The position numbers were made by a program, and so were the translations under genes. From a virus, in the IMG/VR virus record IMGVR_UViG_3300024518_001342, positions 4,043 through 68,042 of that record: a stretch of 64,000 nt of DNA. One strand, written 5' to 3'. Below the pieces are notes generated by a model. The model did no database searches, was not told the origin of the DNA, and worked only from the letters and a program-made list of their open reading frames with translations. How positions within the stretch are numbered: the stretch's first letter is position 1; every line of letters starts with the position of its first letter. Shown here in pieces: positions 2,458-63,825 of this stretch.

Positions 2458-2751
2458 TCATTCTTCAAGTTGAGATTCGCTAAAATATCTTTTATCATCA
2501 AGCTGTTTGATCAATTCGATTTCTTGAATCAATGCGCCCAACTCTGTCTGGTATTGTTCCCCTTCAGGTGTTTGTGGTTGCCAAGCTTCAAATAAATCCT
2601 GAAACTTATCAAGGATAAAAGCTTTCACTGTACCGACTGCTTGTCGTGAACCACTTCCCGATGGCTCGCCATACTGTGTTTGAGGAGTCCGAGAGATTTC
2701 CTCAAGTTCCTCTTTAATAATTTGTTTTAGTTTTTGTTTTGTAATTTTCAT
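2458..2751 (-). CDS. Hypothetical protein with MKITKQKLKQIIKEE N-terminal leader (putative head-associated protein)
   Basis: ORF track; ATGA overlap with the upstream array gene; amphipathic leader ending I-K-E. Confidence 0.7.
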   Translation of the reverse strand: MKITKQKLKQIIKEELEEISRTPQTQYGEPSGSGSRQAVGTVKAFILDKFQDLFEAWQPQTPEGEQYQTELGALIQEIELIKQLDDKRYFSESQLEE

Positions 2752-3368
2752 ATGTATAGTTTTCCTTGTTGTTTTAGTTTATCAGTCATTTCTGAATTGT
2801 TCTTGCGGTATAGCATAGAGGTAGGTTTGTGATTCCACTCGCCGCCACCTTTCTCAGCCCACTTGATAGAAGATAATTGAGTGCAGTTGTCTTCATCCTC
2901 GGGTGTTAAACTATTTTCCAAATCGTCAAGCTGAACTTTCTCAACATCATCGCGTTGGTCCATATATCTTTTCCAAACCGCATAAGCATCTTCGCTTACC
3001 CCGTGGCGATCCGATACTAGACCACCCCCATTTTTGGTTGCGTACTCCATCGCTACATCATATAACATCGGACCCCAACCAGAACTTGCGCCGGTTGAAG
3101 AAACTTCAAATGCACCCATACAATCAAAGCCTTTGTTGTCTTTTCCATAAGGACGAATATACACAAAACCGTAAAACCATCCCCATTTGTCCCGCATCTT
3201 GTCCATATCTTTACGAACGTCTTCGCCAGTTTCTTCATCTACAAACATAAAAACAATATCACCGCCACCTTTGTCTTCGATTCTTACTTGAACGCCATCA
3301 GGTAAATCGGTGGGTTGTTTCATTCCTTCGTTAAGATAGTTGCGCCAGTTTTCAAATAAGAGTTTCAC
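2748..3368 (-). CDS. Leader-array protein 1: GNAT-fold acetyltransferase-like
   Basis: Leader MKLLFENWRNYLNE (GTG start); GWGPMLYDVAMEYA...LVSD...SEDAYAVW resembles GNAT motifs A/B. Confidence 0.6.
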   Translation of the reverse strand: MKLLFENWRNYLNEGMKQPTDLPDGVQVRIEDKGGGDIVFMFVDEETGEDVRKDMDKMRDKWGWFYGFVYIRPYGKDNKGFDCMGAFEVSSTGASSGWGPMLYDVAMEYATKNGGGLVSDRHGVSEDAYAVWKRYMDQRDDVEKVQLDDLENSLTPEDEDNCTQLSSIKWAEKGGGEWNHKPTSMLYRKNNSEMTDKLKQQGKLYI

Positions 3369-4057
3369 CGACCCATCTCCTGTATCATTGTCTTTATTGC
3401 CCCGTTCAAGCGGTTTCCTAATGTTTGTAAGTCTTTATTTCTGTAAGCATTTAATTCTGGTGGGACTTGTTTTGTTTCTTCCCAGTTCTCAACACTTTTT
3501 AATAAACTCTCAGATAAAGAAATTAATAATTGATAAGTTAATCTGCCAACTGCCATTACTTGTGGTGGAAAATCTGGTTCGGTTGCCTCAACCTTATCTA
3601 ATCGTGCTAGTTTATCCTGTGCGTTTTCAATAAGTTTTGGTGCTTTCTCTCGTATGTCGGCAACCATTTTTTCATTTGCTTCTCTAATTCGGTCTTGGAA
3701 CTGAGGCTTGTATTGTTCGATGTCATTGATTTGCCGTGTATAAACCTCGCGTTGGTATTCTTTGAGTGCTTTCATGATGATTCCGATTTCTTCTGTTAGG
3801 TGTTCAGTTTCCCCATAAACCATTCCTTCCCATTCGGTCTTGTCCATGTCTCCTGCCAAGGAGCCAATGCGTTTTCCAAGCGATCCCAAAATACAATGTG
3901 CTGCTTCTGCTATGTTTGATGCCGCCACTTCATATTCGGTCGTGGCAAGAAAAGCACCACCCGAAGGTATTCCGCCATAAATCCCGCCGCGAATAGGACA
4001 GCCCATACCTTCTTCTTCGTTAAGATAGTTGCGCCAGTTTTCAAATAAGAGTTTCAT
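3365..4057 (-). CDS. Leader-array protein 2: helical hypothetical protein
   Basis: Leader MKLLFENWRNYLNE; no recognisable domain. Confidence 0.75.
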   Translation of the reverse strand: MKLLFENWRNYLNEEEGMGCPIRGGIYGGIPSGGAFLATTEYEVAASNIAEAAHCILGSLGKRIGSLAGDMDKTEWEGMVYGETEHLTEEIGIIMKALKEYQREVYTRQINDIEQYKPQFQDRIREANEKMVADIREKAPKLIENAQDKLARLDKVEATEPDFPPQVMAVGRLTYQLLISLSESLLKSVENWEETKQVPPELNAYRNKDLQTLGNRLNGAIKTMIQEMGR

Positions 4058-4060
4058 AAA

Positions 4061-4681
4061 TTATTTTGGTGCGGCGAGCATATCCTTTAGGCTTGGCCAA
4101 AATGTGGCAGCTAAATAAGCTTTCACTTCACCAGCCTTCACTGCTGCAAGGAGCGATTCAAAACCCGCGAAAGCGGTGTCGCCTGACTTTGCGGCTGATG
4201 CAGCACCGACTCCTGAATATATCATTAGAAAAGCGATCAAGAGGTGAAACAATAAATCAGTAGCTTGTTTTGCTTTGGTTTCATCTTTAATTCTCAAAAC
4301 CTTCTCGACAAAAAACCTAATAGGCTTGTGAAATAGGTGATGAAACTTATCTGCATAATGATTAATCTTTTCTGCTACTTTTTCAATGCCTAGATCTTTT
4401 CCTGTCCAACCTTTCACGGCGTTCCCAAATACTTTCGCAATACCTGTGAAAAGTTTCACAATCGCGGGGGCAGCAAGAGTAACACCAAGCGCAAACAAGA
4501 CGCCTTCATCAAGCTGTTGTTCTGCTTCTATTTCTTGCGCGATCTCCTCCGTAGTATCACCCACATCATCGCCAAAAAGTCCAGCGATCTTTCCAAAAGT
4601 CTTTTCTAAAAAGCGATCAAACGCTTCTTCTTCTTCGGCTTCGTTAATATAACCTCGCCATTGTTCCATTAAAAGTTTCAT
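4061..4681 (-). CDS. Leader-array protein 3: putative membrane protein
   Basis: Leader MKLLMEQWRGYINE; hydrophobic segments GVLFALGVTLAAPAIVKLF and LLFHLLIAFLMIYSGVGAA; internal LDE just before the first segment. Confidence 0.7.
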   Translation of the reverse strand: MKLLMEQWRGYINEAEEEEAFDRFLEKTFGKIAGLFGDDVGDTTEEIAQEIEAEQQLDEGVLFALGVTLAAPAIVKLFTGIAKVFGNAVKGWTGKDLGIEKVAEKINHYADKFHHLFHKPIRFFVEKVLRIKDETKAKQATDLLFHLLIAFLMIYSGVGAASAAKSGDTAFAGFESLLAAVKAGEVKAYLAATFWPSLKDMLAAPK

Positions 4682-4685
4682 AATA

Positions 4686-4988
4686 TCAACGATAAAATCT
4701 CCTCTTTCTCTTATAGTCCCGAATAATGTCTCCTAAAACTTCGTCGTCGATGGCTTGAAATTTATCCCAAGGGATTTCTTGGTTTGCCCTTACGGTTTCA
4801 ATAGATAAGTCTTCGGGATTTAAGCTTCCCTGTTTAACTAAATCATCAATCTCATCGGCAAGCTGTCGTTGGACCTTCGCCTTGTCCATAGCACCTCCGT
4901 ATCCTGCGGGTGTGTCTGGTTCATCCGGTATACCTCCGTAATAAGCTTCCTTTAAATACTTCCGCCAACTTTCAAATAAAATTTTCAC
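4686..4988 (-). CDS. Leader-array protein 4: hypothetical
   Basis: Leader MKILFESWRKYLKE. Confidence 0.75.
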   Translation of the reverse strand: MKILFESWRKYLKEAYYGGIPDEPDTPAGYGGAMDKAKVQRQLADEIDDLVKQGSLNPEDLSIETVRANQEIPWDKFQAIDDEVLGDIIRDYKRKRRFYR

Positions 4989-5587
4989 CTGTCTCTTACC
5001 TCCGTGTGACCCACCTTTGTAATTAGTCCCGCTGGTGCTGCGGGTTTCTTTTCGGATGTGCCATCTGCTTTAATAACTTTGAATGGCGCGACAACATAAC
5101 CTTCTGGGTTCACCCGCTTCACCATATATGAATTTCGCCTTTTAGTTCCTATCTTGATTACGTGTTTGATGAGCGCATTTTTGGCTTTGTTGATCACTCT
5201 ATAAACTTGCTTGCTCCGTCCAATAATAAATTCATCACCTTGATCTAATGCTGCTAAAGCATCACCATCGGGATCGCTTTCCTCATCCTCAACATCAAAA
5301 CCAAATCCTTCCATGCCCGGTGGTAATCCGCTTCCCTGTTCGTCAAGTTTTTCTTTTTCTGCGTCCAAAGTCTTCTTGCTCTTTTTATTATCTGGTAAGT
5401 GTTTTTCTATTCTAAATTTTAGTATAGGTTTTCCGTTGACTGTAGGTTGACCGAGTTCATCCTTGCCGATTTCTTTAACAGTCATGCGTTTGTTTTTATA
5501 CTTGCCGCCAAGAATAACATCGCCGACTTCAACATCCACATCGATGTTTTCGGTAAACTTGCGCCAGTTTTCAAATAGGTTCTTCAT
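4985..5587 (-). CDS. Leader-array protein 5: hypothetical, possible SH3/KOW-like beta domains
   Basis: Start re-called from 5632 to the ATG at 5587 (MKNLFENWRKFTE), directly after the upstream gene's stop; VEVGDVILGG and QGDEFII segments. Confidence 0.7.
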   Translation of the reverse strand: MKNLFENWRKFTENIDVDVEVGDVILGGKYKNKRMTVKEIGKDELGQPTVNGKPILKFRIEKHLPDNKKSKKTLDAEKEKLDEQGSGLPPGMEGFGFDVEDEESDPDGDALAALDQGDEFIIGRSKQVYRVINKAKNALIKHVIKIGTKRRNSYMVKRVNPEGYVVAPFKVIKADGTSEKKPAAPAGLITKVGHTEVRDR

Positions 5588-5589
5588 AA

Positions 5590-6621
5590 TTATACCGCTG
5601 CGTTTTTCATTTCCCTTTTTCTTTTTTGCCATTTGTTTCTGGCAGCATTAAAAGTTCCCATGTCTGTTATAATTACTTTTTTATATTTCTTTTGGAGATC
5701 ATATTTTTCAATAGCTGCCATAATCTTATCCATCTTACCGATTTCGTATCTAAGTTCGCGCTTTTCGGCTGGTGTGAGGTCGCCGTGCTTCATTTTGTTA
5801 AATATCTTTTTGGTCTTTACGGCGGGTCCACCAATATAAAGAGCAGACGAATGTGGAACGTTCATAACGTTGGTGTCCACGACCCATTCGTTTTCCGCCT
5901 TAAACATTTTCGCTGCGTTGACTATCCCTGTATAAAGGATGAGCCGCATAAAACCTTTGGAGATATATTTACCTAACTCGTCTTGCTTCCACGAATCGGC
6001 TTTCTTAAGTTGGTCTTGGAGAGCCGGAAATAACAAATCAACCAGGTCTTGCAGACTATTTATGCGATCTAGGTTGGCATACAATTCTTGGGCGATAGGA
6101 GTTTTTACATCCCACTCCCTAAGAAAGTTTTGCATCGTGACCATGGCTTGGTTATCCACCTTCTCGCGTGTGACTTGCCACATCGTCTCGCCGATGTCAG
6201 CAGAATCAAAAATATTTCCGATTACGCGCTCTGCGTGTTGTTCGTCGCCTTGATTCTTTTCCGTCAAGCGATAAAATGCTTTTAGTCCGTCTTGCGCTAG
6301 GAAATCAGGATTATCATATTCTATTTTTACAATAGAATCGTTTATCTCGGCAAAATCTTTGCCGTCCATTACAATGGTTGCGTCTCTAATGTTGCCGTGC
6401 ATTTGCATAAAATTGGAGGGATTATCAGCAAAGCCAACGATGTCTGAGCTAGAAGCTCCGGGTGTCTTGATGACTTTATTATCTCCCAAATCTTTCATAA
6501 TATCCGGTCGGTAATCGTCATCAAAATAGATGGAGATATAAAACTTCTTCGGCATAGATACATCCGAAACATTTTCGAGTTCTTCAAGATACTCGCGCCA
6601 GTTTTCCATCAAGAGTTTCAT
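5590..6621 (-). CDS. Leader-array protein 6: hypothetical, possible ART-like fold
   Basis: Leader MKLLMENWREYLEE; late ENEWVV motif reminiscent of ART ExE (weak). Confidence 0.7.
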   Translation of the reverse strand: MKLLMENWREYLEELENVSDVSMPKKFYISIYFDDDYRPDIMKDLGDNKVIKTPGASSSDIVGFADNPSNFMQMHGNIRDATIVMDGKDFAEINDSIVKIEYDNPDFLAQDGLKAFYRLTEKNQGDEQHAERVIGNIFDSADIGETMWQVTREKVDNQAMVTMQNFLREWDVKTPIAQELYANLDRINSLQDLVDLLFPALQDQLKKADSWKQDELGKYISKGFMRLILYTGIVNAAKMFKAENEWVVDTNVMNVPHSSALYIGGPAVKTKKIFNKMKHGDLTPAEKRELRYEIGKMDKIMAAIEKYDLQKKYKKVIITDMGTFNAARNKWQKRKREMKNAAV

Positions 6622-6983
6622 TTCTTTTTTATCAACTCTTTTTTAATCACCTTAATGTTTTCGGGCTCCAAGATAATCCAGTTGTCGTCAAGTCTAACAC
6701 TATCGAAACCAAGCCCATCTAATTCACCAAGAGAGTATTTATCATATTCATCCCATCCTGCTACTTTTCCCGGCTTTAGTTCCGCAGTCATCAACCACTT
6801 TGTTGATACGGCCCCACTCTCGCCACGCAAGATTTTATCCCTGTCTTCGTTGAACCAAAAAACTCCTTGAGCTGAAAACTGTTTGTCAAAATCTCTAATG
6901 GGCACAGAACTTCCGTGGTAAGCGGTGACAATTTCATCTTCTTCTCGGAGATGCTTGCGCCAGTTTTCGAATAGGATCTTCAC
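6618..6983 (-). CDS. Leader-array protein 7: ADP-ribosyltransferase-like (ART-PolyVal-like) domain
   Basis: Leader MKILFENWRKHLRE; AYHGS..F D..GVFWF and GFDSV...WIILEPENIK pattern. Confidence 0.6.
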   Translation of the reverse strand: MKILFENWRKHLREEDEIVTAYHGSSVPIRDFDKQFSAQGVFWFNEDRDKILRGESGAVSTKWLMTAELKPGKVAGWDEYDKYSLGELDGLGFDSVRLDDNWIILEPENIKVIKKELIKKK

Positions 6984-7327
6984 GACTGTACCTCTATGGA
7001 ATCTAACTGGGCTTGAGTAACTTTGATTTCTCCATCTTCGTTGGGGTTGCCGCTTATCACGTCGGATGGATTGTAGGTGTAAACTAAAAGTGCATCCTGC
7101 TTATCGGTCATTCCGGCATAATAATCAAGAACAAAGTCTTTTGTTGTACCCAGAAACATTCCATTGGCTGGTGACTCTATCGTTCCAATTTCAGCGCGAT
7201 ATTCCAAATCTGGGTTTTGAAGACTGAAAAGTTTATCATCCTCATAAGCAACAATCTTATAGCCGCTACGGGTGGGCGTATCATCTTCGGTCAAATAATT
7301 GCGCCAGTTTTCAAACAAAAGTCTCAT
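6980..7327 (-). CDS. Leader-array protein 8: hypothetical, possible degenerate ART fold
   Basis: Leader MRLLFENWRNYLTE; GYK...GMFLGT...GEIKV. Confidence 0.65.
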   Translation of the reverse strand: MRLLFENWRNYLTEDDTPTRSGYKIVAYEDDKLFSLQNPDLEYRAEIGTIESPANGMFLGTTKDFVLDYYAGMTDKQDALLVYTYNPSDVISGNPNEDGEIKVTQAQLDSIEVQS

Positions 7328-7965
7328 GGCTGAACCACATTCACTCCTTTGGGTCGGCCTAATAAAATCTTCATATGTTTCGTTTCACATTTACCAAGAG
7401 TGCGACAATACCAGCCGGTATGATTCGGATATTTTCCATCGGGGTGTGGTCCGATCCATTCTATTTCTTTTCCTAAAACTTTTCGCACGTCTTCTTCGTT
7501 ATCAACGAATGGAACATTATGATACTTGATCATTACGTGAGCAATCGCATCCGACAACTCACCGTAGTTTCCTTCTGTATTTAATAATTCAGCAGTCTTT
7601 TCTTTGTATGCTCTTATTCCTTCTGATCCACCATCGGAGGCACCAACAGTCATTTTAATTCCTGCTGGTTTTGTTTTTGCACCTCTCACTGCATCGGGCT
7701 CGGGGTCTGCATCAACATCAACTGCCGTCCACTTATCATAATCCGAAGGCATATCGCTCGCAGATCGAATATCAACATTTCCACCAATCTTTGCGTAAGA
7801 TTTTTCAATCATATCATAGATTTCATCGGTGATATCAATATTGTCTGGATCGTTTTCTAGTTCGTCGGTGGGGAGATCAACCCACTTATTCTTTTTGCCG
7901 TCGCTATAATCAGCAAACACCTTTTCGTCTAAATATTTTCGCCAACCTTCAAATAATAACTTCAT
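7324..7965 (-). CDS. Leader-array protein 9: hypothetical
   Basis: Leader MKLLFEGWRKYLDE at ATG 7965, with GAGG SD; an in-frame upstream ATG at 8037 is an alternative start. Confidence 0.7.
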   Translation of the reverse strand: MKLLFEGWRKYLDEKVFADYSDGKKNKWVDLPTDELENDPDNIDITDEIYDMIEKSYAKIGGNVDIRSASDMPSDYDKWTAVDVDADPEPDAVRGAKTKPAGIKMTVGASDGGSEGIRAYKEKTAELLNTEGNYGELSDAIAHVMIKYHNVPFVDNEEDVRKVLGKEIEWIGPHPDGKYPNHTGWYCRTLGKCETKHMKILLGRPKGVNVVQP

Positions 7966-8041
7966 CGTTTTCCCTCGGTCTTTTTCATTTTGAATCTCCG
8001 CACTAAGAAGTTGTTCTAATGAAAACTTATCTACCATATAC

Positions 8042-8049
8042 TAAATAGT
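8042..8049 (-). promoter_or_regulatory. ACTATTTA putative late-promoter motif
   Basis: Intergenic; same octamer lies upstream of capsid, neck and sheath operons. Confidence 0.6.
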
Positions 8050-8052
8050 TTC

Positions 8053-8886
8053 TTAAAATGTCTCTTGCTCTACCTCTTTGATTACAGCAGCAGGTAAGTT
8101 CTTTTTAGCGTAACCAATAATAGATTGACGGTAATCGTTTGTGAAGAAATCTATTACTTCATCTTTGGTATATTGAATTTCATCCTTGGCGAGTTCTTTG
8201 GGATGGGCATAAAAATTAATAAATTCTCCAATAGAATCGTCTAACTTCGCTGAGAAAGGAACTTTAGACATTTTCGCTCGCTTGTAAGTTCCACGAGCGT
8301 ATGCTTCAATTTCAGACGGATCAAGGTAATAAAGACCAAGAGCATCAATGGAGGCTAATCCACCTTGAAACGCTTTCTTTTGTTGTTTTCCGGCTTTTTT
8401 TAATACGTCGATAGATTGTCCACCGTGTGTAAGTTCGTGAACCGTGGTATCTTTCATCTTTTCTATGAGTTCGGACATGTCACCTATTCTAAACTCATCT
8501 GAAAGAGACACCTTGACGGCTACGATACGATCACGCACCATTTCACCATCAGAATCACCATCAGAAGTCATCGTCTGCCCACTGACACTAAACTTTTTGC
8601 CTTCTCCAAAAGCAGCGGAAGGTTCAACTCGTAATTGAAAAGTTATTTTCTTGATACCCTCCTCCTCTAGAGATTTTGGAAGGCCACCAAAGTATTTGTT
8701 ATCATATGCAACGCTCTCAAGTGGATGTTTTATGGACCCAAAACGGGGTTTAATGCGGGGCTCCCCTTTGTTGGCGCTCAAGTGATCTTTAATCTTATTC
8801 ACGATATTTCTTACCATCGTTGTTGCTTCGCCTTCAAACTTGGCTTCTTTTAGCACTTTCCGCCAGTTTTCAAATAAGAGTTTCAT
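8053..8886 (-). CDS. Leader-array protein 10: zincin-like metallopeptidase
   Basis: Leader MKLLFENWRKVLKE; HELTH (HExxH) plus downstream EIEAY (third-ligand E). Confidence 0.7.
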   Translation of the reverse strand: MKLLFENWRKVLKEAKFEGEATTMVRNIVNKIKDHLSANKGEPRIKPRFGSIKHPLESVAYDNKYFGGLPKSLEEEGIKKITFQLRVEPSAAFGEGKKFSVSGQTMTSDGDSDGEMVRDRIVAVKVSLSDEFRIGDMSELIEKMKDTTVHELTHGGQSIDVLKKAGKQQKKAFQGGLASIDALGLYYLDPSEIEAYARGTYKRAKMSKVPFSAKLDDSIGEFINFYAHPKELAKDEIQYTKDEVIDFFTNDYRQSIIGYAKKNLPAAVIKEVEQETF

Positions 8887-9203
8887 TAAAATGTCTCCTG
8901 CTCTCCGTCTTCATAAGTTATAATTGTTTTGTTGGAAGGGTGAGGATTAATATGAACCTTAATAAAATCGTCCATTGAATCAAAGATCGCAATTCCTCCG
9001 CGTGGTGGTGGATAGAGCCAATGAATGATAGCTTGTCCACTCGCCAATTTAGCGCCCTCAATGACAACACCCGCGCCGGAAACACCAGTTTGATCCTCAT
9101 CACGATAAACTGTGAAAGTTCGAATACCTCTTGGTGCCAATGATGAAGGAGGGCTAGGCTTTAGTTCTTCTAATGCCTCCGCGTGTTTCTTTTTTGTGGT
9201 CAA
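8886..9203 (-). CDS. Phage hypothetical protein (no leader)
   Basis: ORF track; RDEDQTGVSGAGVVIEG motif; the only gene inside the array without the leader. Confidence 0.7.
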   Translation of the reverse strand: MTTKKKHAEALEELKPSPPSSLAPRGIRTFTVYRDEDQTGVSGAGVVIEGAKLASGQAIIHWLYPPPRGGIAIFDSMDDFIKVHINPHPSNKTIITYEDGEQETF

Positions 9204-9205
9204 AA

Positions 9206-9907
9206 CTAACTTCCCCCTGCACCGGGGGGTGCCGAACCTTTATAGTTAGACTTGAGTTGCTTCCAGCCTGGGAGTTTTGTTTGTGCGTTTTTCTTTTTGG
9301 TTGGAGTGATGACTTGATTTATTTCTTTGTTTGCTCGCTGGGAGGTTATGGGATAATCGTTTTCGTCTAGTTCTTCTTCTTCCTCGGTTTCTTTCTTGGC
9401 ACCAAAAAATATTATATTGTCACCCGCGATACGAAACTCAAAATTAGCAGGAAGATTCTTTTTTAAGAAGCGCAAATACATTTTAGTGCGGGCAGTTTGA
9501 CCTTTGCTGCCAGTTTCCCCGCCTTTATCAATCCCTTCAAATACAAAACGCAAAATCCCCCGATTCAATTCAGGATTTGAAATAAAATCATTAACAATAG
9601 CAACGATGGTAGACATAATCCGCAAAGGGTGCCCTTCCCCTGTCTGCTTCATAGAACGATTAGCTTCAAAGTCCAAGCTCCATATGGGTACTTCTCGTTT
9701 AACATATTCGCTATCTTCCCAAGTTGTGCCTGTTTTGAAAAATACTTGATAGTCACTTCCATCTTCGCCGTTTGGATCATCAGACGACACAAAATTATAT
9801 TCTACTTCGTCTTCGTCATTAGAGCCAAGTTCCCAGTCAAAAGGTTCTGCGCTTGCGTCACCAATCTCTTTAAGATAGTTGCGCCAACTTTCAATCAATA
9901 GTTTCAT
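9206..9907 (-). CDS. Leader-array protein 11: hypothetical
   Basis: Leader MKLLIESWRNYLKE; TGEG..LRIMSTI...RTKMY core; acidic linker with LDE. Confidence 0.7.
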   Translation of the reverse strand: MKLLIESWRNYLKEIGDASAEPFDWELGSNDEDEVEYNFVSSDDPNGEDGSDYQVFFKTGTTWEDSEYVKREVPIWSLDFEANRSMKQTGEGHPLRIMSTIVAIVNDFISNPELNRGILRFVFEGIDKGGETGSKGQTARTKMYLRFLKKNLPANFEFRIAGDNIIFFGAKKETEEEEELDENDYPITSQRANKEINQVITPTKKKNAQTKLPGWKQLKSNYKGSAPPGAGGS

Positions 9908-10517
9908 CTTTTACCAACTCCTTGTTTACAATCGTGTATCCTTGGACTTCGCCTATGTTGATAAAATCAAACTGATCCAGGATAACCATTTTCTGTGGGC
10001 AATTCGTTTTGTTATTAAGATAGAAGCAAGAAATCTGTCCTACAATTTCGCTAAACAATGCCGGGACAGCCACCGGAGGAACCATTTTGACATGAGCATT
10101 GTATGCTTTTATTTCCCCACCATAGGAAAAAGGAACTTTCCTTTGGACGTGTCCGCCAAAGTCGTGAACAGTTCTAAATTTAGCATTTGTTTCGGCGTCA
10201 AAAATTGGATGTTCTGCGTCAGCCGTAGAAATTAACAATACTCCTTCTTCTTGCACTTGCTTAATCATTTGTTTAGAAGACTTATAGGGATGGTAATCAA
10301 CAAACTCAACATCAACAACGCCAACCACTCTTTCAAAGAACTTATTGACCCACTCTCCTAGTGCCTCATAACTGGCCTTGGCTCCTGGTTGTTCCATCGG
10401 GGCATCTATATATGCCTGACCAACTAATTGACGATAGAGATCCCATCCGTTCTCACCAGGCTTGAGCATTAATTTCTCGTTGATATACCCGCGCCAGTTT
10501 TCAAATAAGAGTTTCAT
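9891..10517 (-). CDS. Leader-array protein 12: putative metal-binding enzyme
   Basis: Leader MKLLFENWRGYINE; FRTVHDFGGH...GEIKAYNAH cluster of His/Asp/Glu. Confidence 0.65.
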   Translation of the reverse strand: MKLLFENWRGYINEKLMLKPGENGWDLYRQLVGQAYIDAPMEQPGAKASYEALGEWVNKFFERVVGVVDVEFVDYHPYKSSKQMIKQVQEEGVLLISTADAEHPIFDAETNAKFRTVHDFGGHVQRKVPFSYGGEIKAYNAHVKMVPPVAVPALFSEIVGQISCFYLNNKTNCPQKMVILDQFDFINIGEVQGYTIVNKELVKDETID

Positions 10518-11218
10518 AGTTCTCCTATTTGTTCTGGTGAAATAATTTTTACATCAGGTCTGTTCATTTTTCTATGAACAATTTTCTGAAGGTAGTTGTG
10601 GGATATTTCAGGAGCGATGATGGCAGTTATTTTCCAGTTATCCACAAACGCTTCATTCCAATTGCTCTCCTTCACAATACGAGGCTTCCAATCTTCTTCA
10701 TCAAAAACAAAAATTCTATCCACATAATCCACGCACCGATAAGAAATTCCTACACCCTTGTTTGCGCCTGAAGACTTAGTTCTCTCTGGATTAGCTAAAG
10801 TATAATCCACCCCTGCACCACTCATAACATCATTCATGTCATTAGCCAACAAAGTGATATGACCATCTACTACAAATCCATAATCTCCCCAGGTCGAGGC
10901 TGTTACCTCTCCCGGCAAGTATGCCGCACAACTTAACTCGTCTTTGCTGGAACCCCTTAGCAGTCTAGCACTCCCCATTCTATCTGTCCAGTGAATTGTT
11001 ATGAGACTGTCCAAGAAAGCACGATCAGCGTATTTATTATATGTTTTTTTAATTCCGCGTCCGGTTTTGATAACTTCAGGATAAGGATTGTCTAAGTTGG
11101 CTACAGGATTCCGCCTCCGATCAAATCCGCCCATCTTGCACAAGGCTTTCGCAAATTCTTCACGAGTGTTGTCATCTTCCTTCAGGAATTTACGCCAGTT
11201 TTCAATTAAGATCTTCAC
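10514..11218 (-). CDS. Leader-array protein 13: hypothetical, possible ART-like fold
   Basis: GTG at 11218 preceded by GGAGG gives MKILIENWRKFLKE; the track start at 11287 adds 23 aa; TIHW...LSC...WNEAFV pattern. Confidence 0.65.
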   Translation of the reverse strand: MKILIENWRKFLKEDDNTREEFAKALCKMGGFDRRRNPVANLDNPYPEVIKTGRGIKKTYNKYADRAFLDSLITIHWTDRMGSARLLRGSSKDELSCAAYLPGEVTASTWGDYGFVVDGHITLLANDMNDVMSGAGVDYTLANPERTKSSGANKGVGISYRCVDYVDRIFVFDEEDWKPRIVKESNWNEAFVDNWKITAIIAPEISHNYLQKIVHRKMNRPDVKIISPEQIGEL

Positions 11219-11273
11219 CTGTTTTGATCCTCCGATTACTTGTTCCAAGTCTTCATCGGTAAGTTCTCCGTCA

Positions 11274-11498
11274 TCATTTTCCATCACTCTTGAGGTATTG
11301 GATTAATTCTTTTTTTTGAGAGGTAGTCAAAGTGTGGCTCAAGATTTCCTTAACACTAGTAAAAGGAGATTCTATAAAAGTTTTTCTATCAACATCACAG
11401 TATGGACAATTCATAAAGATTCCTTTTCTTACCCCACCCAGACACAACGAACACTGCACTTTTATATAGAGCGCAAGTTCATCGCTGTCGTCGCTCAC
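11274..11498 (-). CDS. Small Zn-finger protein (CxxC...CxxC)
   Basis: CSLCLGG...CPYCD; ACTATTTA 5 nt upstream. Confidence 0.6.
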   Translation of the reverse strand: MSDDSDELALYIKVQCSLCLGGVRKGIFMNCPYCDVDRKTFIESPFTSVKEILSHTLTTSQKKELIQYLKSDGK

Positions 11499-11503
11499 TT
11501 ATA

Positions 11504-11511
11504 TAAATAGT
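11504..11511 (-). promoter_or_regulatory. ACTATTTA putative late-promoter motif heading the leader array
   Basis: Intergenic, just downstream of the hsp20 terminator. Confidence 0.6.
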
Positions 11512-39133: not shown

Positions 39134-39162
39134 TATAAGTCTCGATTCCTGAATATTCTGTA

Positions 39163-39191
39163 AGTTTATAAGAGTGGTTCAAAAGTGTCAA
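39163..39191 (-). promoter_or_regulatory. sigma70-type promoter upstream of the helicase
   Basis: Minus strand TTGACA-N17-TAAACT. Confidence 0.55.
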
Positions 39192-39197
39192 GTCTTA

Positions 39198-60837: not shown

Positions 60838-62583
60838 TTAGCCGAAGAGATCTTCTACAACAACAAGACCATACATATCAGGTCTGACCATGTGCTTGCC
60901 ATATCGAGTCATTACACCCTTTCGTGGCGTAAAGTTCTCGGGGTCAAAGATGGTCGGAGTTGTTTGCAGTGGCACATAAGGCGCGTAAACATATCCAGAT
61001 TCAAGGAATCCGCTTCCTTTGCGACCAACTAGCAAGAGATTGCGTGGGAAGTATGGATCAACATACACATCCCATTTCTTGCTAATCGAGCCCGTCTTCA
61101 CGGCACCAGCAGTTCCGCGATTTTCATCTGCGGTTGTGTCAGCACGGAAGCCGTTGGTAAATTCAAGAATGTTCGCAACTTCAGGAGAAGTAACAATAAA
61201 GTTAGCTCCACCGCGAAGCGTCTTACGATGAATCTGTGCTGAAACGTCATTGACAGTCTCAAGCAAAGTCTCATACCATTCTGAAACAGTACCCGTGAAT
61301 GCTCCACCGGCTGCAACTGCACCCGTGTCGCGATTTACAAAGCGTCCGGGGCGTCGTGACCAATAGAAGGTAGAAGCAGTCGCGCCTTTGATAAGGTCTT
61401 CAAGGATTTCTTGATCAATTTCAAGAGCAATCGCTTCAGACAAAATCGAGGTAAGCTCAACTTCAGCATCCAAATTATGATAAGCATTGATGTCCTGCTG
61501 TAGTTCTGGTGTCCATTTAGCACGAAGCTTTTTAGTCATCGCGGTGATAGAAACACTATCAACCTTGATGTCGATTTCAGCAATCGCAGAACCAGAGTTA
61601 TCATCAGCACAAGGGTTATTGTTCCCTAGACCTTCCAAATCCCATTCAGGAGCACCAACAATGGCACCAGGAACGCCAGCGACTTGTTGGAAGTTATCAT
61701 TAATGACAAAGGATGTACTATTAATAGTCTTTAAAGCCGCGTCCGCAAGCGGACCAGTGGAGCCAGAGCAGACAACCAAAAGGTTGACTGGTGGAGCGCC
61801 CGCTGGATCTGCAAAATCTGGTGAAGTTAATCGACGAATTTGCAGATTACCACCATCAGTATTAAGAGGAGTTCCCCCGGCAGTCAAAACAATGGAAACA
61901 TCATCTTGAACGTTAAATTGTGCGGCGGTCAAGGTTGCAAAGCTGATAAGTCCAACCGCAAGAGAAGATCCAGAAAGGTCTGGGTCAAATCGTATCAGTC
62001 GATCTCCATCGTCAGAACGATCTCCATCAGTACCAGCAGTCCAGCCTCCCGCTTGATCGCGTCTCGCCACTGTAGAAACAGTAATAGCAACCGAACCAGT
62101 CGTTGCACCATAACCATTGTTAAGGTTATAGAAACTGTCTTCGCCGGATTCCGAGACACCACTGAGGTTTACACCATTGATAAGCTCGGCACCAACGACA
62201 CCACCACCATAGATAGAGTCACAAGCTTCATAGCCGAGTTTAGTATTTGCAGTTGTAAAGTCGAGGAAGAAAATAAGACCACTCGGCAAGCTCATAGGCT
62301 GAACCGAGACAAGCTCATTCGCTACCAATCCGCCGAATACACGACGAACGATTGGAAATGCAACTGCTGCAAATCCTTCAACATCACCACCAGCCATTGT
62401 GGAAGCTTCACGAAGAAGTTCCTTGGCTTGATTTTCTAGAAGACATGCCATACTATTTCTATTATGGTCGCCCTCAATTCCTTCTAAAAGTCCAGTGTTC
62501 TCCCATTTTGATAAGAGAGCATTGGCTTCACGCGAAAGATCACGATTAATGATTCCTTCGGTTAGTTTTTCAATAATACTCAT
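60838..62583 (-). CDS. Major capsid protein (T4 gp23-like)
   Basis: LLENQ, PIVRR, VSVQPM..PSGLIF, KLRAKWTPEL.QD..A.H.LDAE.EL and YAPYVPL...TRYG. Confidence 0.95.
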   Translation of the reverse strand: MSIIEKLTEGIINRDLSREANALLSKWENTGLLEGIEGDHNRNSMACLLENQAKELLREASTMAGGDVEGFAAVAFPIVRRVFGGLVANELVSVQPMSLPSGLIFFLDFTTANTKLGYEACDSIYGGGVVGAELINGVNLSGVSESGEDSFYNLNNGYGATTGSVAITVSTVARRDQAGGWTAGTDGDRSDDGDRLIRFDPDLSGSSLAVGLISFATLTAAQFNVQDDVSIVLTAGGTPLNTDGGNLQIRRLTSPDFADPAGAPPVNLLVVCSGSTGPLADAALKTINSTSFVINDNFQQVAGVPGAIVGAPEWDLEGLGNNNPCADDNSGSAIAEIDIKVDSVSITAMTKKLRAKWTPELQQDINAYHNLDAEVELTSILSEAIALEIDQEILEDLIKGATASTFYWSRRPGRFVNRDTGAVAAGGAFTGTVSEWYETLLETVNDVSAQIHRKTLRGGANFIVTSPEVANILEFTNGFRADTTADENRGTAGAVKTGSISKKWDVYVDPYFPRNLLLVGRKGSGFLESGYVYAPYVPLQTTPTIFDPENFTPRKGVMTRYGKHMVRPDMYGLVVVEDLFG

Positions 62584-62598
62584 TATTTTTTTTTCTCC

Positions 62599-63825
62599 TT
62601 AAATAATGCCCGCAAGTCGTTTCAGTCTATCGACTTGATTTTGACCAGCGGGTAGTTTTTCTTTATTTGATTTCAATATAAGCGGATTGTTTTTATTCAC
62701 TGCTTCGTTCAATGTCTTCGGAGCAGTTTTGCTCTTGGACGAAAGATTTTCATTCAATGTATCATAAACAATCTTGGCTTCTTCTACTGAACCAACTTTT
62801 GAAATTGCTTCGACAAGTTTTTCTTTTTGTCGCTCATTCAAGGAGTCGCTTTTCAGGATGCGATTCGTGTAGATTAATTTTGCGTTAGAAAAATTAACTT
62901 CTTCTAACTTCTTTGTTGCCTTTAGTGCAATACTCTTAAGATTATCAAAATCTTTTTTCTGCTTATTCAATTTAAGCTTCTGAGATTTATTTTGCTCTTG
63001 CAACTTCTTTAATGCTTGGCGCAATTGTTCTTGCTCCTCTGCAAATTCTGTGTCTTGTTCTTGCGCTAAAGCAATATCAAGACCTCGTTCGTTTTGTCCC
63101 ATAGTTGGGTGTGTATGAAAGATATCCCCGGAAGGAACATTCTTCATATCGACTACTAATGCCTCGACGATTTCATCAAGTAGTTCTTCGTCAAGTTCTT
63201 CGTTCTCATCAATTTCTTGTTCTCCTGAATCCTCAAAAATTTCAGGGGCGATTTTTTCAGCACCCTCGTTTTTGGGTTTGTCTTTCTTTTCTTCTTCTTT
63301 AGATTTTTTAATAGCTTTATCACGCGAGCCTTTCCATTCGGCTTTTTTCGATTCTACCTCACCATCGCCATCAAAATCTTTTTCAGCTTCTTCGTCATCT
63401 TCTTCCTCGTTCAGTGCTTGGGCAATTACCTCAAGAAGATTGTCGTCGTTTACCTCAAAGAGTTCTTCTTCATCGGCAGCAACATCGCCACCAAGATCCA
63501 TTTCTTCTTCGCTCTCTGCTGCTTGTGCCGCAGCAACAATCTGATCTAGATCAAGAACCATTGGCTCTTCTTCTTCGGGGCACGGACACATGTTCTCGCC
63601 ATCAGTGGCAGCAATCGGCATTTGATCGGCTATGCCGGGTTCAGCATCAAGACCTTCCTCGTCTTCCATACCAAACATATCTTCCTCTTGTTCTAAAAGG
63701 GATGTGACGGCTTCTTTGATTTCGCCTGAATACTTTTCGAGAACTTCTTGTTCTGCGTTTTTCATCGCCGCTTCTCGAAGTGCTTCGGCGTCAATGACGG
63801 CTTGGTCTAACATAGTTGATGACAT
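62599..63825 (-). CDS. Prohead core scaffolding protein (gp22-like)
   Basis: Acidic coiled-coil directly upstream of the capsid gene; many LxE sites; NAKLIY.N and terminal RLKRLAGII. Confidence 0.8.
   Translation of the reverse strand: MSSTMLDQAVIDAEALREAAMKNAEQEVLEKYSGEIKEAVTSLLEQEEDMFGMEDEEGLDAEPGIADQMPIAATDGENMCPCPEEEEPMVLDLDQIVAAAQAAESEEEMDLGGDVAADEEELFEVNDDNLLEVIAQALNEEEDDEEAEKDFDGDGEVESKKAEWKGSRDKAIKKSKEEEKKDKPKNEGAEKIAPEIFEDSGEQEIDENEELDEELLDEIVEALVVDMKNVPSGDIFHTHPTMGQNERGLDIALAQEQDTEFAEEQEQLRQALKKLQEQNKSQKLKLNKQKKDFDNLKSIALKATKKLEEVNFSNAKLIYTNRILKSDSLNERQKEKLVEAISKVGSVEEAKIVYDTLNENLSSKSKTAPKTLNEAVNKNNPLILKSNKEKLPAGQNQVDRLKRLAGII

What the first reader, a model, noticed from the sequence alone, without database searches (positions are those of the whole stretch)
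2748..11218. Array of 13 unrelated genes sharing one N-terminal leader: candidate capsid-targeted effector system
Seen: 13 consecutive minus-strand genes (one leaderless gene interrupts them) begin with MKLLFENWRNYLNE (x2), MKLLMEQWRGYINE, MKILFESWRKYLKE, MKNLFENWRKFTE, MKLLMENWREYLEE, MKILFENWRKHLRE, MRLLFENWRNYLTE, MKLLFEGWRKYLDE, MKLLFENWRKVLKE, MKLLIESWRNYLKE, MKLLFENWRGYINE and (GTG)KILIENWRKFLKE. Similarity stops after the final Glu, and the bodies are unrelated. Many genes are coupled by 4-nt start/stop overlaps, and the array sits under the same ACTATTTA motif as the capsid genes. Known: T4 internal proteins carry a ~10-aa capsid-targeting sequence (MKTYQEFIAE) removed by the gp21 prohead protease, which cuts after L/I-x-E, and they are injected with the DNA. 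Inference: 12 of 13 leaders end in L/I-x-E, and the capsid (LLREA) and scaffold have the same sites. This looks like a distinct capsid-targeting tag that loads a large, variable set of effectors into the head for delivery at infection. The tag could also be useful for loading engineered cargo.
Basis: partly seen in the sequence, partly recalled or inferred. Interest (0 to 1): 0.92.

Follow-up and report, generated by a model that had tools for sequence, protein, structure and literature searches.

The report
Capsid-loading tag on phage gene array
Thirteen neighbouring genes of an uncultured marine T4-like phage start with the same 14-residue peptide, which is most likely a longer version of phage T4's tag for loading proteins into the virus head and then cutting them free, here attached to a very large and varied set of enzymes.

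Summary
Thirteen minus-strand genes (window 2748-11218) begin with M-K-L-L-F-E-N-W-R-x-Y-L-x-E and nothing else in the 68-kb contig does. Conservation is at the peptide level, since synonymous codons vary. The contig is a 37%-complete fragment of a distant T4-like myovirus.

The same leader heads at least 242 distinct proteins (112 body clusters) in IMG/VR, and 1,479 representative proteins among 1.84 billion. It is almost always at residue 1. It is essentially absent from 185,579 cellular genomes and from deposited phage genomes.

New evidence here:
- The tag shares the T4 capsid-targeting spacing: aromatic, x, x, aromatic, L/I, x, E.
- One cargo family carries this leader in some lineages and near-T4 leaders (MKTFKQFIFE, MKSFKQYITE) in others.
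- A hydrophobic-x-Glu triplet abuts the cargo body whatever precedes it (58 of 65 and 63 of 64 distinct junctions in two families).
- All 11 related records at least 80% complete encode a gp21-type protease.
- The capsid protein has L-x-E|A at T4's cleavage position.
- AlphaFold2 leaves the leader detached from two confident bodies.

Packaging, cleavage and injection remain unobserved. This scan has already reported the same kind of array on other DNA. Verdict: a new variant of a known kind.

The parts
11504..11511 (-). ACTATTTA promoter-like motif at the head of the array
   Evidence: The same motif precedes the scaffold, sheath and neighbouring structural genes. Across the lineage it occurs 186 times on the leader-coding strand against 10 on the opposite strand in 1.0 Mb of related loci.
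11274..11498 (-). 74-aa Cys-rich gene without leader, the first gene after the motif
   Evidence: No Pfam or PHROG family.
10514..11218 (-). Leader gene 14 (234 aa, GTG start, leader coded by 11177-11218); body unassigned
   Evidence: A GGAGGA Shine-Dalgarno sits 8-13 nt before the GTG. The frame is open up to 11287, but that start would overlap the upstream gene. No Pfam or PHROG family.
9891..10517 (-). Leader gene 13 (208 aa); body is a widespread viral family (phrog_3170) with no solved-fold match
   Evidence: The AlphaFold2 model has pLDDT 90.8 overall, with residues 1-14 under 50. No PDB match.
9206..9907 (-). Leader gene 12 (233 aa); body unassigned; ends in a basic tail plus SAPPGAGGS
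8886..9203 (-). Leaderless gene that interrupts the array (105 aa, TTG start)
   Evidence: Matches phrog_7499, function unknown.
8053..8886 (-). Leader gene 10 (277 aa); body contains an H-E-x-x-H motif (possible zincin)
   Evidence: for the sequence. No Pfam or PHROG family. The ESM Atlas gives only viral clusters without a family. The nearest named clusters, LPD23 at 0.86 and SprT-like at 0.83, are leads only.
8042..8049 (-). Second ACTATTTA motif inside the array, 4 nt before an upstream in-frame ATG and 77 nt before the leader ATG at 7965
7324..7965 (-). Leader gene 9 (213 aa); body has a probable GNAT-like fold; the commonest cargo family
   Evidence: its cluster holds 27 of the 242 proteins. 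AlphaFold2 pLDDT 89.9. Foldseek top hits are all GNAT acetyltransferases, with E from 2.4e-3 and TM-scores of 0.41-0.56.
6980..7327 (-). Leader gene 8 (115 aa); body unassigned
6618..6983 (-). Leader gene 7 (121 aa, GTG start); body probably an ART-PolyVal-type ADP-ribosyltransferase
   Evidence: ESM Atlas score 0.95 to two viral clusters in which 67-73% of members carry PF18760. Pfam ART-PolyVal reaches only E 0.06.
5590..6621 (-). Leader gene 6 (343 aa); body unassigned
4985..5587 (-). Leader gene 5 (200 aa); its leader is one residue shorter (…W-R-K-F-T-E)
   Evidence: The body family also occurs as 84-aa leader proteins in other loci.
4686..4988 (-). Leader gene 4 (100 aa, GTG start); small acidic body
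4061..4681 (-). Leader gene 3 (206 aa); body has two long hydrophobic stretches (possible membrane protein)
   Evidence: from reading the sequence. No family.
3365..4057 (-). Leader gene 2 (230 aa); body unassigned
2748..3368 (-). Leader gene 1 (206 aa, GTG start); distant relative of gene 9 (GNAT-like family)
2458..2751 (-). Downstream 97-aa gene coupled by a 4-nt overlap; no W-R core, but its first 14 residues end in I-K-E
   Evidence: Membership of the array is not shown.
60838..62583 (-). gp23-type major capsid protein with L-L-R-E|A at residues 56-60, aligned with T4's maturation cleavage site
   Evidence: Pfam Gp23, E 8.2e-72. In the alignment with T4 gp23, T4's F-L-T-E ends at residue 65 and the window's L-L-R-E ends at residue 59, in the same columns.
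62599..63825 (-). Scaffold-like (gp22-position) acidic protein with a conserved N-terminal A-L-[KR]-E|A
   Evidence: It lies just upstream of the capsid gene. Homologues occupy the same position in G001 and G002. No Pfam or PHROG family. The role is inferred from position and composition.

Best explanation
The 14-residue leader is an N-terminally extended form of the capsid targeting sequence (CTS) of T4-type phages.

Proposed mechanism, by analogy with T4:
1. The amphipathic helix carries aromatic residues at positions 8 and 11. It docks each newly made cargo protein onto the scaffolding core of the prohead before the shell closes.
2. The gp21-type (Peptidase S77) prohead protease then cuts after the L/I-x-E at residues 12-14.
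3. The short peptide leaves the head and the cargo stays inside with the DNA.
4. The cargo is probably expelled into the next host cell with the DNA.

The array is a late-expressed cassette locus. Unrelated genes gain head loading simply by carrying the tag. These include a GNAT-like protein, an ART-like protein and a possible metallopeptidase, with many unknowns.

Shown here: the anatomy of the array, its distribution, the motif correspondence to T4, the junction rule, and the presence of the head machinery in relatives.

Inferred: docking, cutting, retention in the head and injection.
For: 1. The position is N-terminal. All 13 window copies start genes. In the profile search, 143 of the best 150 matches start at residue 1 and the other 7 start at residues 2-11.

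2. The cargo is unrelated. The 242 distinct leader proteins fall into 112 body clusters, 70 of them singletons. There are 1,479 representative proteins at E <= 0.001 among 1.84 billion.

3. The residue spacing matches the tested T4 tag.
   - T4 ipII and ipIII start M-K-T-Y-Q-E-F-I-A-E (T4 record; PMC8442874 passage).
   - Targeting needs residues 4 and 7, and processing needs residues 8 and 10 (PMC9026906 passage).
   - The leader has W8, Y/F11, L/I12 and E14 in the same register.
   - These positions were not part of my search pattern, yet Y/F11 occurs in 223 of 242, L/I/V/M12 in 223 of 242 and E14 in 194 of 242.

4. There is a bridge to T4.
   - The GNAT-like cargo family was found in 62 IMG/VR loci.
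   - By an approximate regex count it carries this leader in 20 loci, a short W-K-x-F-I-x-E form in 4 and a T4-like form (M-K-S/T-F-x-x-F/Y-I/L-x-E) in 8.
   - Neighbouring genes in a locus share that locus's class.
   - L167 has five consecutive T4-like-tagged genes with unrelated bodies.

5. The junction rule holds in two families.
   - In the GNAT-like family, 58 of 65 distinct junctions have hydrophobic-x-E directly before the body. Four more are shifted by one residue.
   - This includes bodies preceded by more than 100 residues of other sequence, or by a 24-residue insert.
   - In the second family (gene 13), 63 of 64 distinct prefixes end in [LIVM]-x-E at the body, although prefix length ranges from 14 to 35 residues.

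6. The head machinery is present.
   - The capsid protein is gp23-type.
   - L-x-E|A is conserved at T4's cleavage column in the window and in 5 relatives.
   - Peptidase_S77 is found in 5 of 5 complete relatives and in 6 of 6 further records at least 80% complete.

7. The leader is detachable. In two confident AlphaFold2 models the leader has low confidence. Residues 1-10 average 49 in one model, and residues 1-14 are under 50 in the other. The bodies score 90 or more.

8. The array shares the ACTATTTA motif with the structural genes, both in the window and in complete relative G001.

9. The leader is restricted to phages. It gave 1 chance-level hit in 185,579 species genomes, a 32-aa ORF without the second half of the leader.

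10. The leader is an amphipathic helix. Its hydrophobic moment is 0.549 against a shuffle mean of 0.287, and 3.8% of shuffles reach it.
Against: - No virion proteome, N-terminal sequence or expression timing exists for this lineage, so every functional step is by analogy.
- The contig has no S77 gene. That is uninformative rather than contrary, because the contig is 37% complete.
- Cargo is mostly acidic. That applies to 82% of the 242 bodies and to 9 of 11 array ORFs, against 60% of the other ORFs. T4 internal proteins are basic.
- Residue 15, the P1' position, is most often Glu (64 of 242). The capsid and scaffold sites have Ala there, so efficient cutting is not assured.
- Some cargo looks like housekeeping enzymes (guanylate kinase, CCA/poly-A polymerase family, DnaJ, NUDIX) or membrane proteins. 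Their value as packaged proteins is not obvious.
- ClpP and GroEL homologues are conserved in 5 of 5 complete relatives as well. Co-occurrence therefore cannot single out the S77 protease as the partner.
- That ACTATTTA is a late promoter is itself an inference.
Confidence: 0.65

Rival explanations
1. The leader is an address or recognition tag for some other lineage-specific machine, not the head. Candidates are the phage ClpP homologue (timed degradation), the phage GroEL (folding), the membrane, or a replication compartment.
For: A ClpP homologue (window 20802-21443, Pfam CLP_protease E 1.2e-29) and GroEL (13833-15407) are conserved in 5 of 5 complete leader-bearing relatives. The leader is an amphipathic helix, a shape that also suits membrane or chaperone binding. 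Some cargo are ordinary metabolic enzymes.
Against: This reading does not explain why hydrophobic-x-Glu must abut the body at every prefix length, or after unrelated upstream domains. It does not explain why the same cargo carries near-T4 capsid tags in other lineages. It does not explain why the array shares its promoter-like motif with the head and tail genes.
Confidence: 0.13
2. The leader does load proteins into the prohead and is cut, but the cargo are assembly-phase core components. They are degraded or expelled before DNA packaging, so nothing is delivered to the host.
For: In T4 most core proteins (gp22, gp67, gp68) also carry short N-terminal L/I-x-E sites and are removed during maturation (PMC9026906 passages). 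The cargo here is mostly acidic, like the scaffold.
Against: The bodies are folded enzyme-like domains of more than a hundred unrelated families. That is hard to square with a structural role. The two modelled bodies show no further regularly placed L-x-E sites of the kind expected for degradation, though I did not test this systematically.
Confidence: 0.12
3. The conserved stretch is kept for a nucleic-acid or gene-shuffling reason, and the peptide itself has no role. It could be a recombination site for cassette exchange, or a translation-initiation or coupling element.
For: Genes are tightly coupled, with six 4-nt overlaps. The first two leader DNAs are identical over the first 14 codons. 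Eight of 150 representative proteins carry a second, internal leader copy, as expected after cassette fusions.
Against: Invariant residues are encoded by up to six synonymous codons. Conservation stops exactly at Glu14 in the protein. Leader length varies while the peptide motif and junction are kept.
Confidence: 0.05

Closest known systems
[quoted passage not shown]
   Same: - Both are N-terminal tags of 10-19 residues and amphipathic.
- Both have aromatic residues 6 and 3 positions before a terminal L/I-x-E.
- Both sit on otherwise unrelated proteins.
- Both occur in phages with a gp23-type capsid, an acidic scaffold and an S77 protease.
- Sources; passages in PMC9026906, PMC3012670 and PMC8442874.
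   Different: - The leader has four extra N-terminal residues (M-K-L-L-F-E-N before the aromatic) and a W-R pair.
- It heads 13 genes in one array, and 1,479 representative proteins worldwide, against three in T4.
- The cargo is mostly acidic and often enzyme-sized (61-837 residues, median 215), not small and basic.
- Nothing has been tested experimentally.
Variable internal-protein loci of T-even phages (different proteins behind a CTS-like start in T2, T6 and relatives)
   Same: A plastic locus in which the tag is the only conserved part. The cargo is read as arms-race proteins. [quoted passage not shown]
   Different: The scale differs (over a hundred cargo families), as do the lineage (uncultured marine, capsid protein under 60% identical to any deposited phage) and the leader class. 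I recall the primary T-even papers but did not see them.
Long N-terminal propeptides of ejection proteins in giant phages (SPN3US, phiKZ, 201phi2-1)
   Same: The propeptides are cut by a T4-related prohead protease at x-x-E sites and are thought to target proteins into the head. Paralogues share identical N-termini (PMC5694885 passages).
   Different: Those propeptides are mostly 80-130 residues long, the cleavage motif is A/S/G-x-E, and they are not a short portable tag shared by unrelated proteins.
Polyvalent proteins of phages and conjugative elements (source of the Pfam names ART-PolyVal and LPD23)
   Same: The domain repertoire is similar: ADP-ribosyltransferase, zincin-like, nuclease and kinase domains. 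These are thought to enter the cell with the DNA. ART-PolyVal appears among the cargo.
   Different: In polyvalent proteins the domains are strung into one giant protein. Here they are separate small genes, each with its own tag. My account of polyvalent proteins is recalled; only the Pfam names come from calls.
Encapsulin cargo-loading peptides (recalled, not tested)
   Same: A short portable peptide loads unrelated enzymes into an HK97-fold shell.
   Different: These peptides are usually C-terminal, are not removed by a protease, bind the shell protein directly, and the system is cellular.

Membership tests
T4-type capsid targeting sequence (CTS) system | Short peptide (about 10-20 residues) at the extreme N-terminus | tested here: met
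   All 13 of 13 window copies start genes. In the profile search, 143 of the best 150 hits start at residue 1.
T4-type capsid targeting sequence (CTS) system | Ends in the gp21-type cleavage motif L/I-x-E | tested here: met
   12 of 13 in the window. Among the 242 proteins, 190 have the first [LIVM]-x-E ending at residue 14, and 28 more at residue 15 or 16.
T4-type capsid targeting sequence (CTS) system | Targeting residues: aromatic or hydrophobic side chains 6 and 3 positions before the Glu (T4 residues 4 and 7) | tested here: met
   W8 is invariant, although it was part of the search pattern. Y/F11 occurs in 223 of 242 and was not part of the pattern. The T4 sequence comes and the mutational data from a PMC9026906 passage. 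Only the sequence pattern was tested, not function.
T4-type capsid targeting sequence (CTS) system | The same tag on otherwise unrelated proteins | tested here: met
   112 body clusters among 242 proteins. No Pfam family is shared.
T4-type capsid targeting sequence (CTS) system | Genome encodes a gp21-type (Peptidase S77) prohead protease | tested here: inconclusive
   None in this contig at E <= 1, but the contig is 37% complete. Present in 11 of 11 leader-bearing records at least 80% complete. Of the 49 records, 12 have it, and all 37 without it are under 70% complete.
T4-type capsid targeting sequence (CTS) system | gp23-type capsid protein and scaffold processed at the same motif | tested here: met
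   Pfam Gp23. L-x-E|A lies in T4's cleavage column in 6 of 6 lineage capsid proteins. The scaffold-like protein has a conserved A-L-[KR]-E|A. Cleavage itself was not observed.
T4-type capsid targeting sequence (CTS) system | Tagged proteins are found inside virions with the tag removed | not testable with these tools
   No cultured member is known. tblastn of a 20-aa leader against 50,697 deposited phage records gave no real hit. No proteome is available.
T4 internal proteins (IPI-III) as a protein class | Small, highly basic, DNA-associated proteins | tested here: not met
   82% of the 242 bodies have a net negative charge, and their median length is 215 residues. The cargo is therefore not IP-like, although the tag is CTS-like.
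ART-PolyVal ADP-ribosyltransferase (cargo of gene 6618-6983) | Significant match to PF18760 | tested here: inconclusive
   Pfam gives E 0.06 and 14.6 bits against a cut-off of 31.2. The ESM Atlas scores 0.95 to clusters in which 67-73% of members carry PF18760.
GNAT acetyltransferase fold (cargo of genes 7324-7965 and 2748-3368) | Structural match to solved GNAT enzymes | tested here: inconclusive
   All top Foldseek hits are GNATs, but E values are 2.4e-3 and upward and TM-scores are 0.41-0.56. No Pfam match.

The most novel reading that the evidence does not exclude
A short, sequence-readable address label marks on the order of a thousand distinct proteins as head-packaged, host-injected enzymes in an abundant, uncultured group of marine T4-like phages. 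The label has diversified into classes, from the T4-like 10-mer to this 14-mer. Each class matches its own head machinery. The injected-protein arsenal of uncultured phages could then be read directly from metagenomes. Much of what is annotated as hypothetical 'accessory' genes would really be pre-loaded takeover and counter-defence enzymes.
Probability: 0.4. Interest if true: 0.85.

Novelty: new variant of a known kind. Interest (0 to 1): 0.7.

Why it matters
If the reading is right, the proteins a phage brings into the cell with its DNA can be predicted from sequence alone for a whole uncultured marine lineage. These are the first actors of infection and are usually invisible to genomics.

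The cargo list is then a catalogue of candidate host-takeover and anti-defence activities awaiting assay. It includes GNAT-like, ADP-ribosyltransferase-like, NUDIX, kinase, nuclease and metallopeptidase-like proteins, plus hundreds of unknowns.

It would also show that the T4 tag, known from three proteins of one model phage, is one member of an old and diversified tag family. The junction rule (hydrophobic-x-Glu right at the body) would give a practical way to find more members.

A defined 14-residue tag with a built-in release site would be a second, orthogonal tool for loading chosen proteins into phage heads.

Tried and rejected
What led nowhere or was inconclusive:

- Megablast of the array against deposited phages gave no match.
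- Pfam and PHROGs on the 13 bodies gave no family, apart from phrog_3170 for gene 13 and a sub-threshold GH26 hit for gene 6.
- tblastn of a 20-aa leader against 50,697 phage records gave only one hit, at E = 9. tblastn of cargo 9 gave none. I therefore found no cultured carrier. A short query has limited power.
- The literature searches were 'LFENWR' (0 papers), 'capsid targeting sequence' alone (21 papers, all on T4, P1, SPN3US, P22 or vaccine platforms by title), and combinations. I found no description of this leader or of large CTS arrays in marine phages. The library lacks most subscription journals.
- I did not open any supplements. Cleavage-site tables there may bear on whether Glu is tolerated after the cut.
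- Complex prediction with the scaffold-like protein (3-row alignment) and the first 40 residues of a leader protein (13-row alignment) returned 'no answer'. This is neither support nor evidence against.
- I tested whether cargo starting with a Y-H-G-S/T-like motif are ADP-ribosyltransferases. Pfam at E <= 1 on 10 such proteins gave only the weak ART-PolyVal hit for window gene 7.
- For cargo 13, Foldseek against the PDB gave a best E of 0.86, and VIA-align wide gave a best Z of 3.2. Scattered zincin-like rows are too weak to claim.
- Rhodococcus phage E3 gp205, labelled 'structural protein' in its record, shares a domain with cargo 13. It is an 858-aa protein next to a tail fibre gene. I could not find the proteome paper in the library, so I draw no virion evidence from it.
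- Co-occurrence cannot discriminate between partners. GroEL and ClpP are as universal in the complete relatives as S77.
- PHROGs on ten G001 genes that follow ACTATTTA recognised only the tail sheath. The 'late promoter' reading therefore rests on sheath, scaffold and capsid neighbourhoods in two genomes.
- A DNA pattern for the short W-x-N-F-I-K-E leader variant found nothing in IMG/VR.
- I considered and rejected a shared folded N-terminal domain, because the AlphaFold2 models leave the leader detached. I rejected a secretion signal because the leader has no hydrophobic core. I rejected chance.

Full report
**What is there.** Between 2748 and 11218 the minus strand carries 13 genes whose products begin M/V-K-L-L-F-E-N-W-R-x-Y-L-x-E.
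- One leaderless gene (8886-9203) interrupts them.
- A 74-aa Cys-rich gene (11274-11498) precedes them.
- A 97-aa gene (2458-2751) follows, joined by a 4-nt overlap.
- Six of the 12 junctions between array genes are 4-nt overlaps.
- Four starts are GTG, and each has a purine-rich Shine-Dalgarno.
- A six-frame scan finds no further copy in the window or in the whole 68,042-base contig.
- Similarity ends at Glu14. Residue 15 onward shows no preference beyond acidity.
- Conservation is at the peptide level. In the window, L3, R9 and L12 use 4, 4 and 6 codons. Among 263 distinct leader DNAs from related loci each uses 6.

**What the contig is.** The window is bases 4043-68042 of a 68-kb viral record that CheckV rates 37% complete.
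- It encodes a gp23-type capsid protein (Pfam Gp23, E 8.2e-72). The best deposited relatives are 38-52% identical over two thirds of its length: an uncultured 484-kb phage, Flavobacterium phage immuto, Microcystis phage Mel-JY01 and Rhodothermus RM378.
- An acidic scaffold-like gene lies just upstream of the capsid gene.
- It also encodes tail sheath, tail tube and baseplate hub, and GroEL, a ClpP homologue, a DNA polymerase, RNR, a DnaB-type helicase, UvsX and SSB.
- It is therefore a distant T4-like myovirus.

**How widespread the leader is.**
- These loci hold 302 leader-type starts. Of these, 276 are complete ORFs of at least 50 aa with a start codon, and 242 are distinct proteins of 61-837 residues, median 215.
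- After removing the first 18 residues they fall into 112 clusters at BLASTP E <= 1e-5, 70 of them singletons.
- A profile of 140 N-terminal 32-mers found 1,479 representative proteins (50%-identity clusters) at E <= 0.001 among 1.84 billion. Of the best 150, 143 match from residue 1 and the rest from residues 2-11. Thirty-two of those 150 are fragments under 60 aa.
- The same DNA pattern hit 1 place in 185,579 bacterial and archaeal species genomes. That hit is a 32-aa ORF in a soil MAG that lacks the second half of the leader.
- A 20-aa leader query found nothing real in 50,697 deposited phage genomes.
- The carriers form one lineage. CheckV completeness implies genomes of about 180-205 kb, and the capsid proteins of five complete records are 60-74% identical to the window's.

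**Why I read it as a capsid-targeting, protease-released tag.**

*First, the pattern matches the one tag of this kind that has been tested.*
- T4 ipII and ipIII begin M-K-T-Y-Q-E-F-I-A-E, and ipI begins M-K-T-F-K-E-F…I-T-E (from the T4 record; PMC8442874 passage).
- A review of the T4 work states that residues 4 and 7 carry the targeting and residues 8 and 10 the processing. It also states that the first 10 residues suffice (PMC9026906 passages).
- Counting back from the Glu, the window's leader has W at -6, Y/F at -3, L/I at -2 and E at 0. This is the same register as T4's Y4, F7, I8 and E10.
- Positions 10-14 were not in my search pattern. Even so, Y/F11 occurs in 223 of 242, L/I/V/M12 in 223 of 242 and E14 in 194 of 242. 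The first [LIVM]-x-E ends at residue 14, 15 or 16 in 218 of 242.

*Second, there is a bridge between the two tags.*
- The commonest cargo (window genes 7324-7965 and 2748-3368, 27 of the 242 proteins) was traced to 62 IMG/VR loci.
- By an approximate pattern count it carries the 14-mer in 20 loci, a shortened M-N-K-K-W-K-N-F-I-N-E form in 4, and a T4-like 10-mer (M-K-S-F-K-Q-Y-I-T-E, M-K-T-F-K-Q-F-I-F-E) in 8.
- In 13 more it lies behind a long open upstream part, 15 have other or no leader, and 2 lack a full ORF.
- Neighbouring genes in a locus carry that locus's own class. Locus L167 has five consecutive T4-like-tagged genes with unrelated bodies.
- Complete relative G001 mixes the 14-mer with shorter W-[KR]-x-F-L-x-E starts in one 8-kb locus.

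*Third, the junction behaves like a cleavage site rather than the end of a docking helix.*
- In the GNAT-like family, 58 of 65 distinct junctions have hydrophobic-x-Glu immediately before the conserved start of the body.
- Four more have it shifted by one residue, one has a one-residue spacer, and two have an 8-residue acidic spacer.
- This holds when the body follows a 24-residue insert (…G-L-Q-E|) or more than 100 residues of other sequence (…N-L-N-E|, …P-L-S-E|, …D-L-S-E|).
- In the second family (window gene 9891-10517; 120 homologues, of which 13 lack the N-terminal part), 63 of 64 distinct prefixes end in [LIVM]-x-E right at the body. Prefix lengths are 14 (31 prefixes), 15 (16), 16 (5), 19 (3) and up to 35 residues.
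- Eight of the best 150 profile hits carry a second, internal leader copy without the initial M-K, as if two cassettes had fused into a cleavable polyprotein.

*Fourth, the machinery is there.*
- The capsid protein has L-L-R-E|A ending at residue 59. It aligns with T4's F-L-T-E|A, which ends at residue 65. T4's gp23 propeptide is 65 residues (PMC9026906).
- The site is conserved in all five relatives.
- The scaffold-like protein starts with a conserved …A-L-[KR]-E|A. T4's own core proteins gp21, gp22, gp24, gp67 and gp68 show the same short N-terminal L/I-x-E.
- Peptidase_S77 is absent from this fragment. It is present in 5 of 5 complete relatives and in 12 of 49 further records. That includes all 6 that are at least 80% complete, and the 37 without it are all under 70% complete.

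*Fifth, the leader is not part of the fold.* AlphaFold2 models of genes 9 and 13 are confident (pLDDT 89.9 and 90.8). Residues 1-10 average 49 in the first, and residues 1-14 are under 50 in the second. In both the leader is drawn as a short detached helix. It is amphipathic.

*Sixth, regulation.*
- ACTATTTA is over-represented in the window: 14 occurrences against 2.85 expected, 12 of them on the gene strand.
- It lies just upstream of the scaffold, sheath and neighbouring structural genes, and twice in the array.
- In 1.0 Mb of related loci it occurs 186 times on the leader-coding strand, against 10 on the other strand and 44 expected. For 104 of 302 leader genes a copy lies within 3 kb upstream.
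- In G001 it precedes the scaffold, the sheath and the leader loci.
- That it is a late promoter is my inference.

**What the cargo is.** Most of it is unknown.
- Among 106 cluster representatives, Pfam found NUDIX (2 representatives) and single cases of DUF192, poly-A/CCA polymerase, TMEM65, DnaJ, guanylate kinase, HD, RNase T, protein kinase, GNAT, HNH, ART-PolyVal and others. In all 28 families were matched, and most representatives matched none.
- In the window, genes 9 and 1 are probably GNAT-like. Gene 7 is probably an ART-PolyVal-type ADP-ribosyltransferase. Gene 10 has an H-E-x-x-H motif (leads only). Gene 3 has hydrophobic stretches.
- Gene 13 belongs to a large viral family with a confident model but no solved-fold match.
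- This mix of enzymes fits proteins meant to act at the very start of infection, as T4's packaged Alt and IPI do (PMC9026906, PMC3012670 passages). That role is not shown.

**What speaks against, and what remains open.**
- No step of the mechanism has been observed.
- The bodies are mostly acidic: 82% overall, and 9 of 11 array ORFs against 60% of the window's other ORFs. T4's internal proteins are basic.
- The residue after the proposed cut is most often Glu (64 of 242), whereas the capsid and scaffold sites have Ala.
- ClpP and GroEL are as universal in the lineage as S77.
- A fold of the scaffold-like protein with the leader gave no answer.

**Comparison and novelty.**
- The idea that T-even internal proteins are a diverse set sharing only a targeting sequence is in print, as is the idea that this may be a general way for T4-like phages to load proteins (PMC3012670, PMC9026906 passages).
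- My searches found no description of this 14-residue class, its lineage, its scale, the link between classes through shared cargo, or the junction rule.
- This scan has already reported arrays of the same kind on other DNA. Examples are e1-6086933 and e1-5367008 for 14-residue tags in marine T4-like phages, and e1-5729554 for L-x-E-linked polyproteins. Those are unchecked notes and I did not use them as evidence.
- I rate the finding a new variant of a known kind. My confidence is 0.65 for the tag-and-cut mechanism, and lower (about 0.4-0.5) for delivery of active enzymes into the host.

Noticed in passing
window 9206-9907 (C-terminus); also L089, L104 and protein P0031: Unrelated leader proteins end in the same tail: a run of basic residues followed by S-A-P-P-G-A-G-G-S/T. 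It occurs in 3 of the 242 leader proteins plus one homologue of another family. It may be a second portable signal or a C-terminal processing site.
   Followed up: partly
window 11219-11287: The frame of leader gene 14 is open 23 codons upstream of its GTG and reads …E-L-T-D-E-D-L-E-Q-V-I-G-G-S…. Nearly the same peptide precedes the leader of a gene-13 homologue from another contig (P0050). It resembles a double-glycine-type leader from memory, but the G-G codons are also the Shine-Dalgarno GGAGGA. It could be conserved DNA rather than protein.
   Followed up: partly
proteins P0162-P0165, P0175, P0193, P0230, P0303: Eight of the best 150 profile hits carry a second, internal copy of the leader without its M-K (…L-F-E-N-W-R-x-Y-L-x-E…). 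This looks like two cassettes fused into one polyprotein with an internal release site.
   Followed up: partly
window 2458-2751: The 97-aa gene coupled to the last leader gene by a 4-nt overlap has no W-R core. Its first 14 residues are a basic amphipathic stretch ending in I-K-E, so it may be a differently tagged cargo.
   Followed up: no
window 20802-21443 and 13833-15407: A ClpP homologue (Pfam CLP_protease, E 1.2e-29) and a GroEL are encoded by the phage. Both are conserved in 5 of 5 complete relatives, alongside the S77 prohead protease, and some relatives have a second, weaker ClpP-like match.
   Followed up: partly
window 8042, 11504, 13819, 22783, 28689(+), 30877, 53310, 58030, 60735, 63859; G001 in 19 places: ACTATTTA behaves as a strand-specific promoter-like element across the lineage, with 186 copies on the gene strand against 10 on the other in 1.0 Mb. 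It is unlike the T4 late-promoter box as I recall it.
   Followed up: partly
window about 39150-39200, minus strand: Just before the DnaB-type helicase gene there is a TTGACA, then 17 bases, then TATAAA, seen in the printout. It is a candidate host-type early promoter, in contrast to the ACTATTTA sites.
   Followed up: no
window 9891-10517: The body of leader gene 13 has a confident AlphaFold2 model (pLDDT 90.8) with invariant His, Asp and Glu residues, yet no convincing solved-structure match (Foldseek best E 0.86, VIA best Z 3.2). The domain also sits inside large proteins of actinophages that are annotated variously as structural protein, lysin or glycosylase.
   Followed up: partly
G001 94610-95488 (locus L135): In complete relative G001, a lone gene starting M-R-R-D-L-F-Y-E-N-W-R-N-F-L-L-K-E sits directly after an ACTATTTA site, about 85 kb from the main leader locus. 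Tagged genes are therefore not confined to arrays.
   Followed up: no
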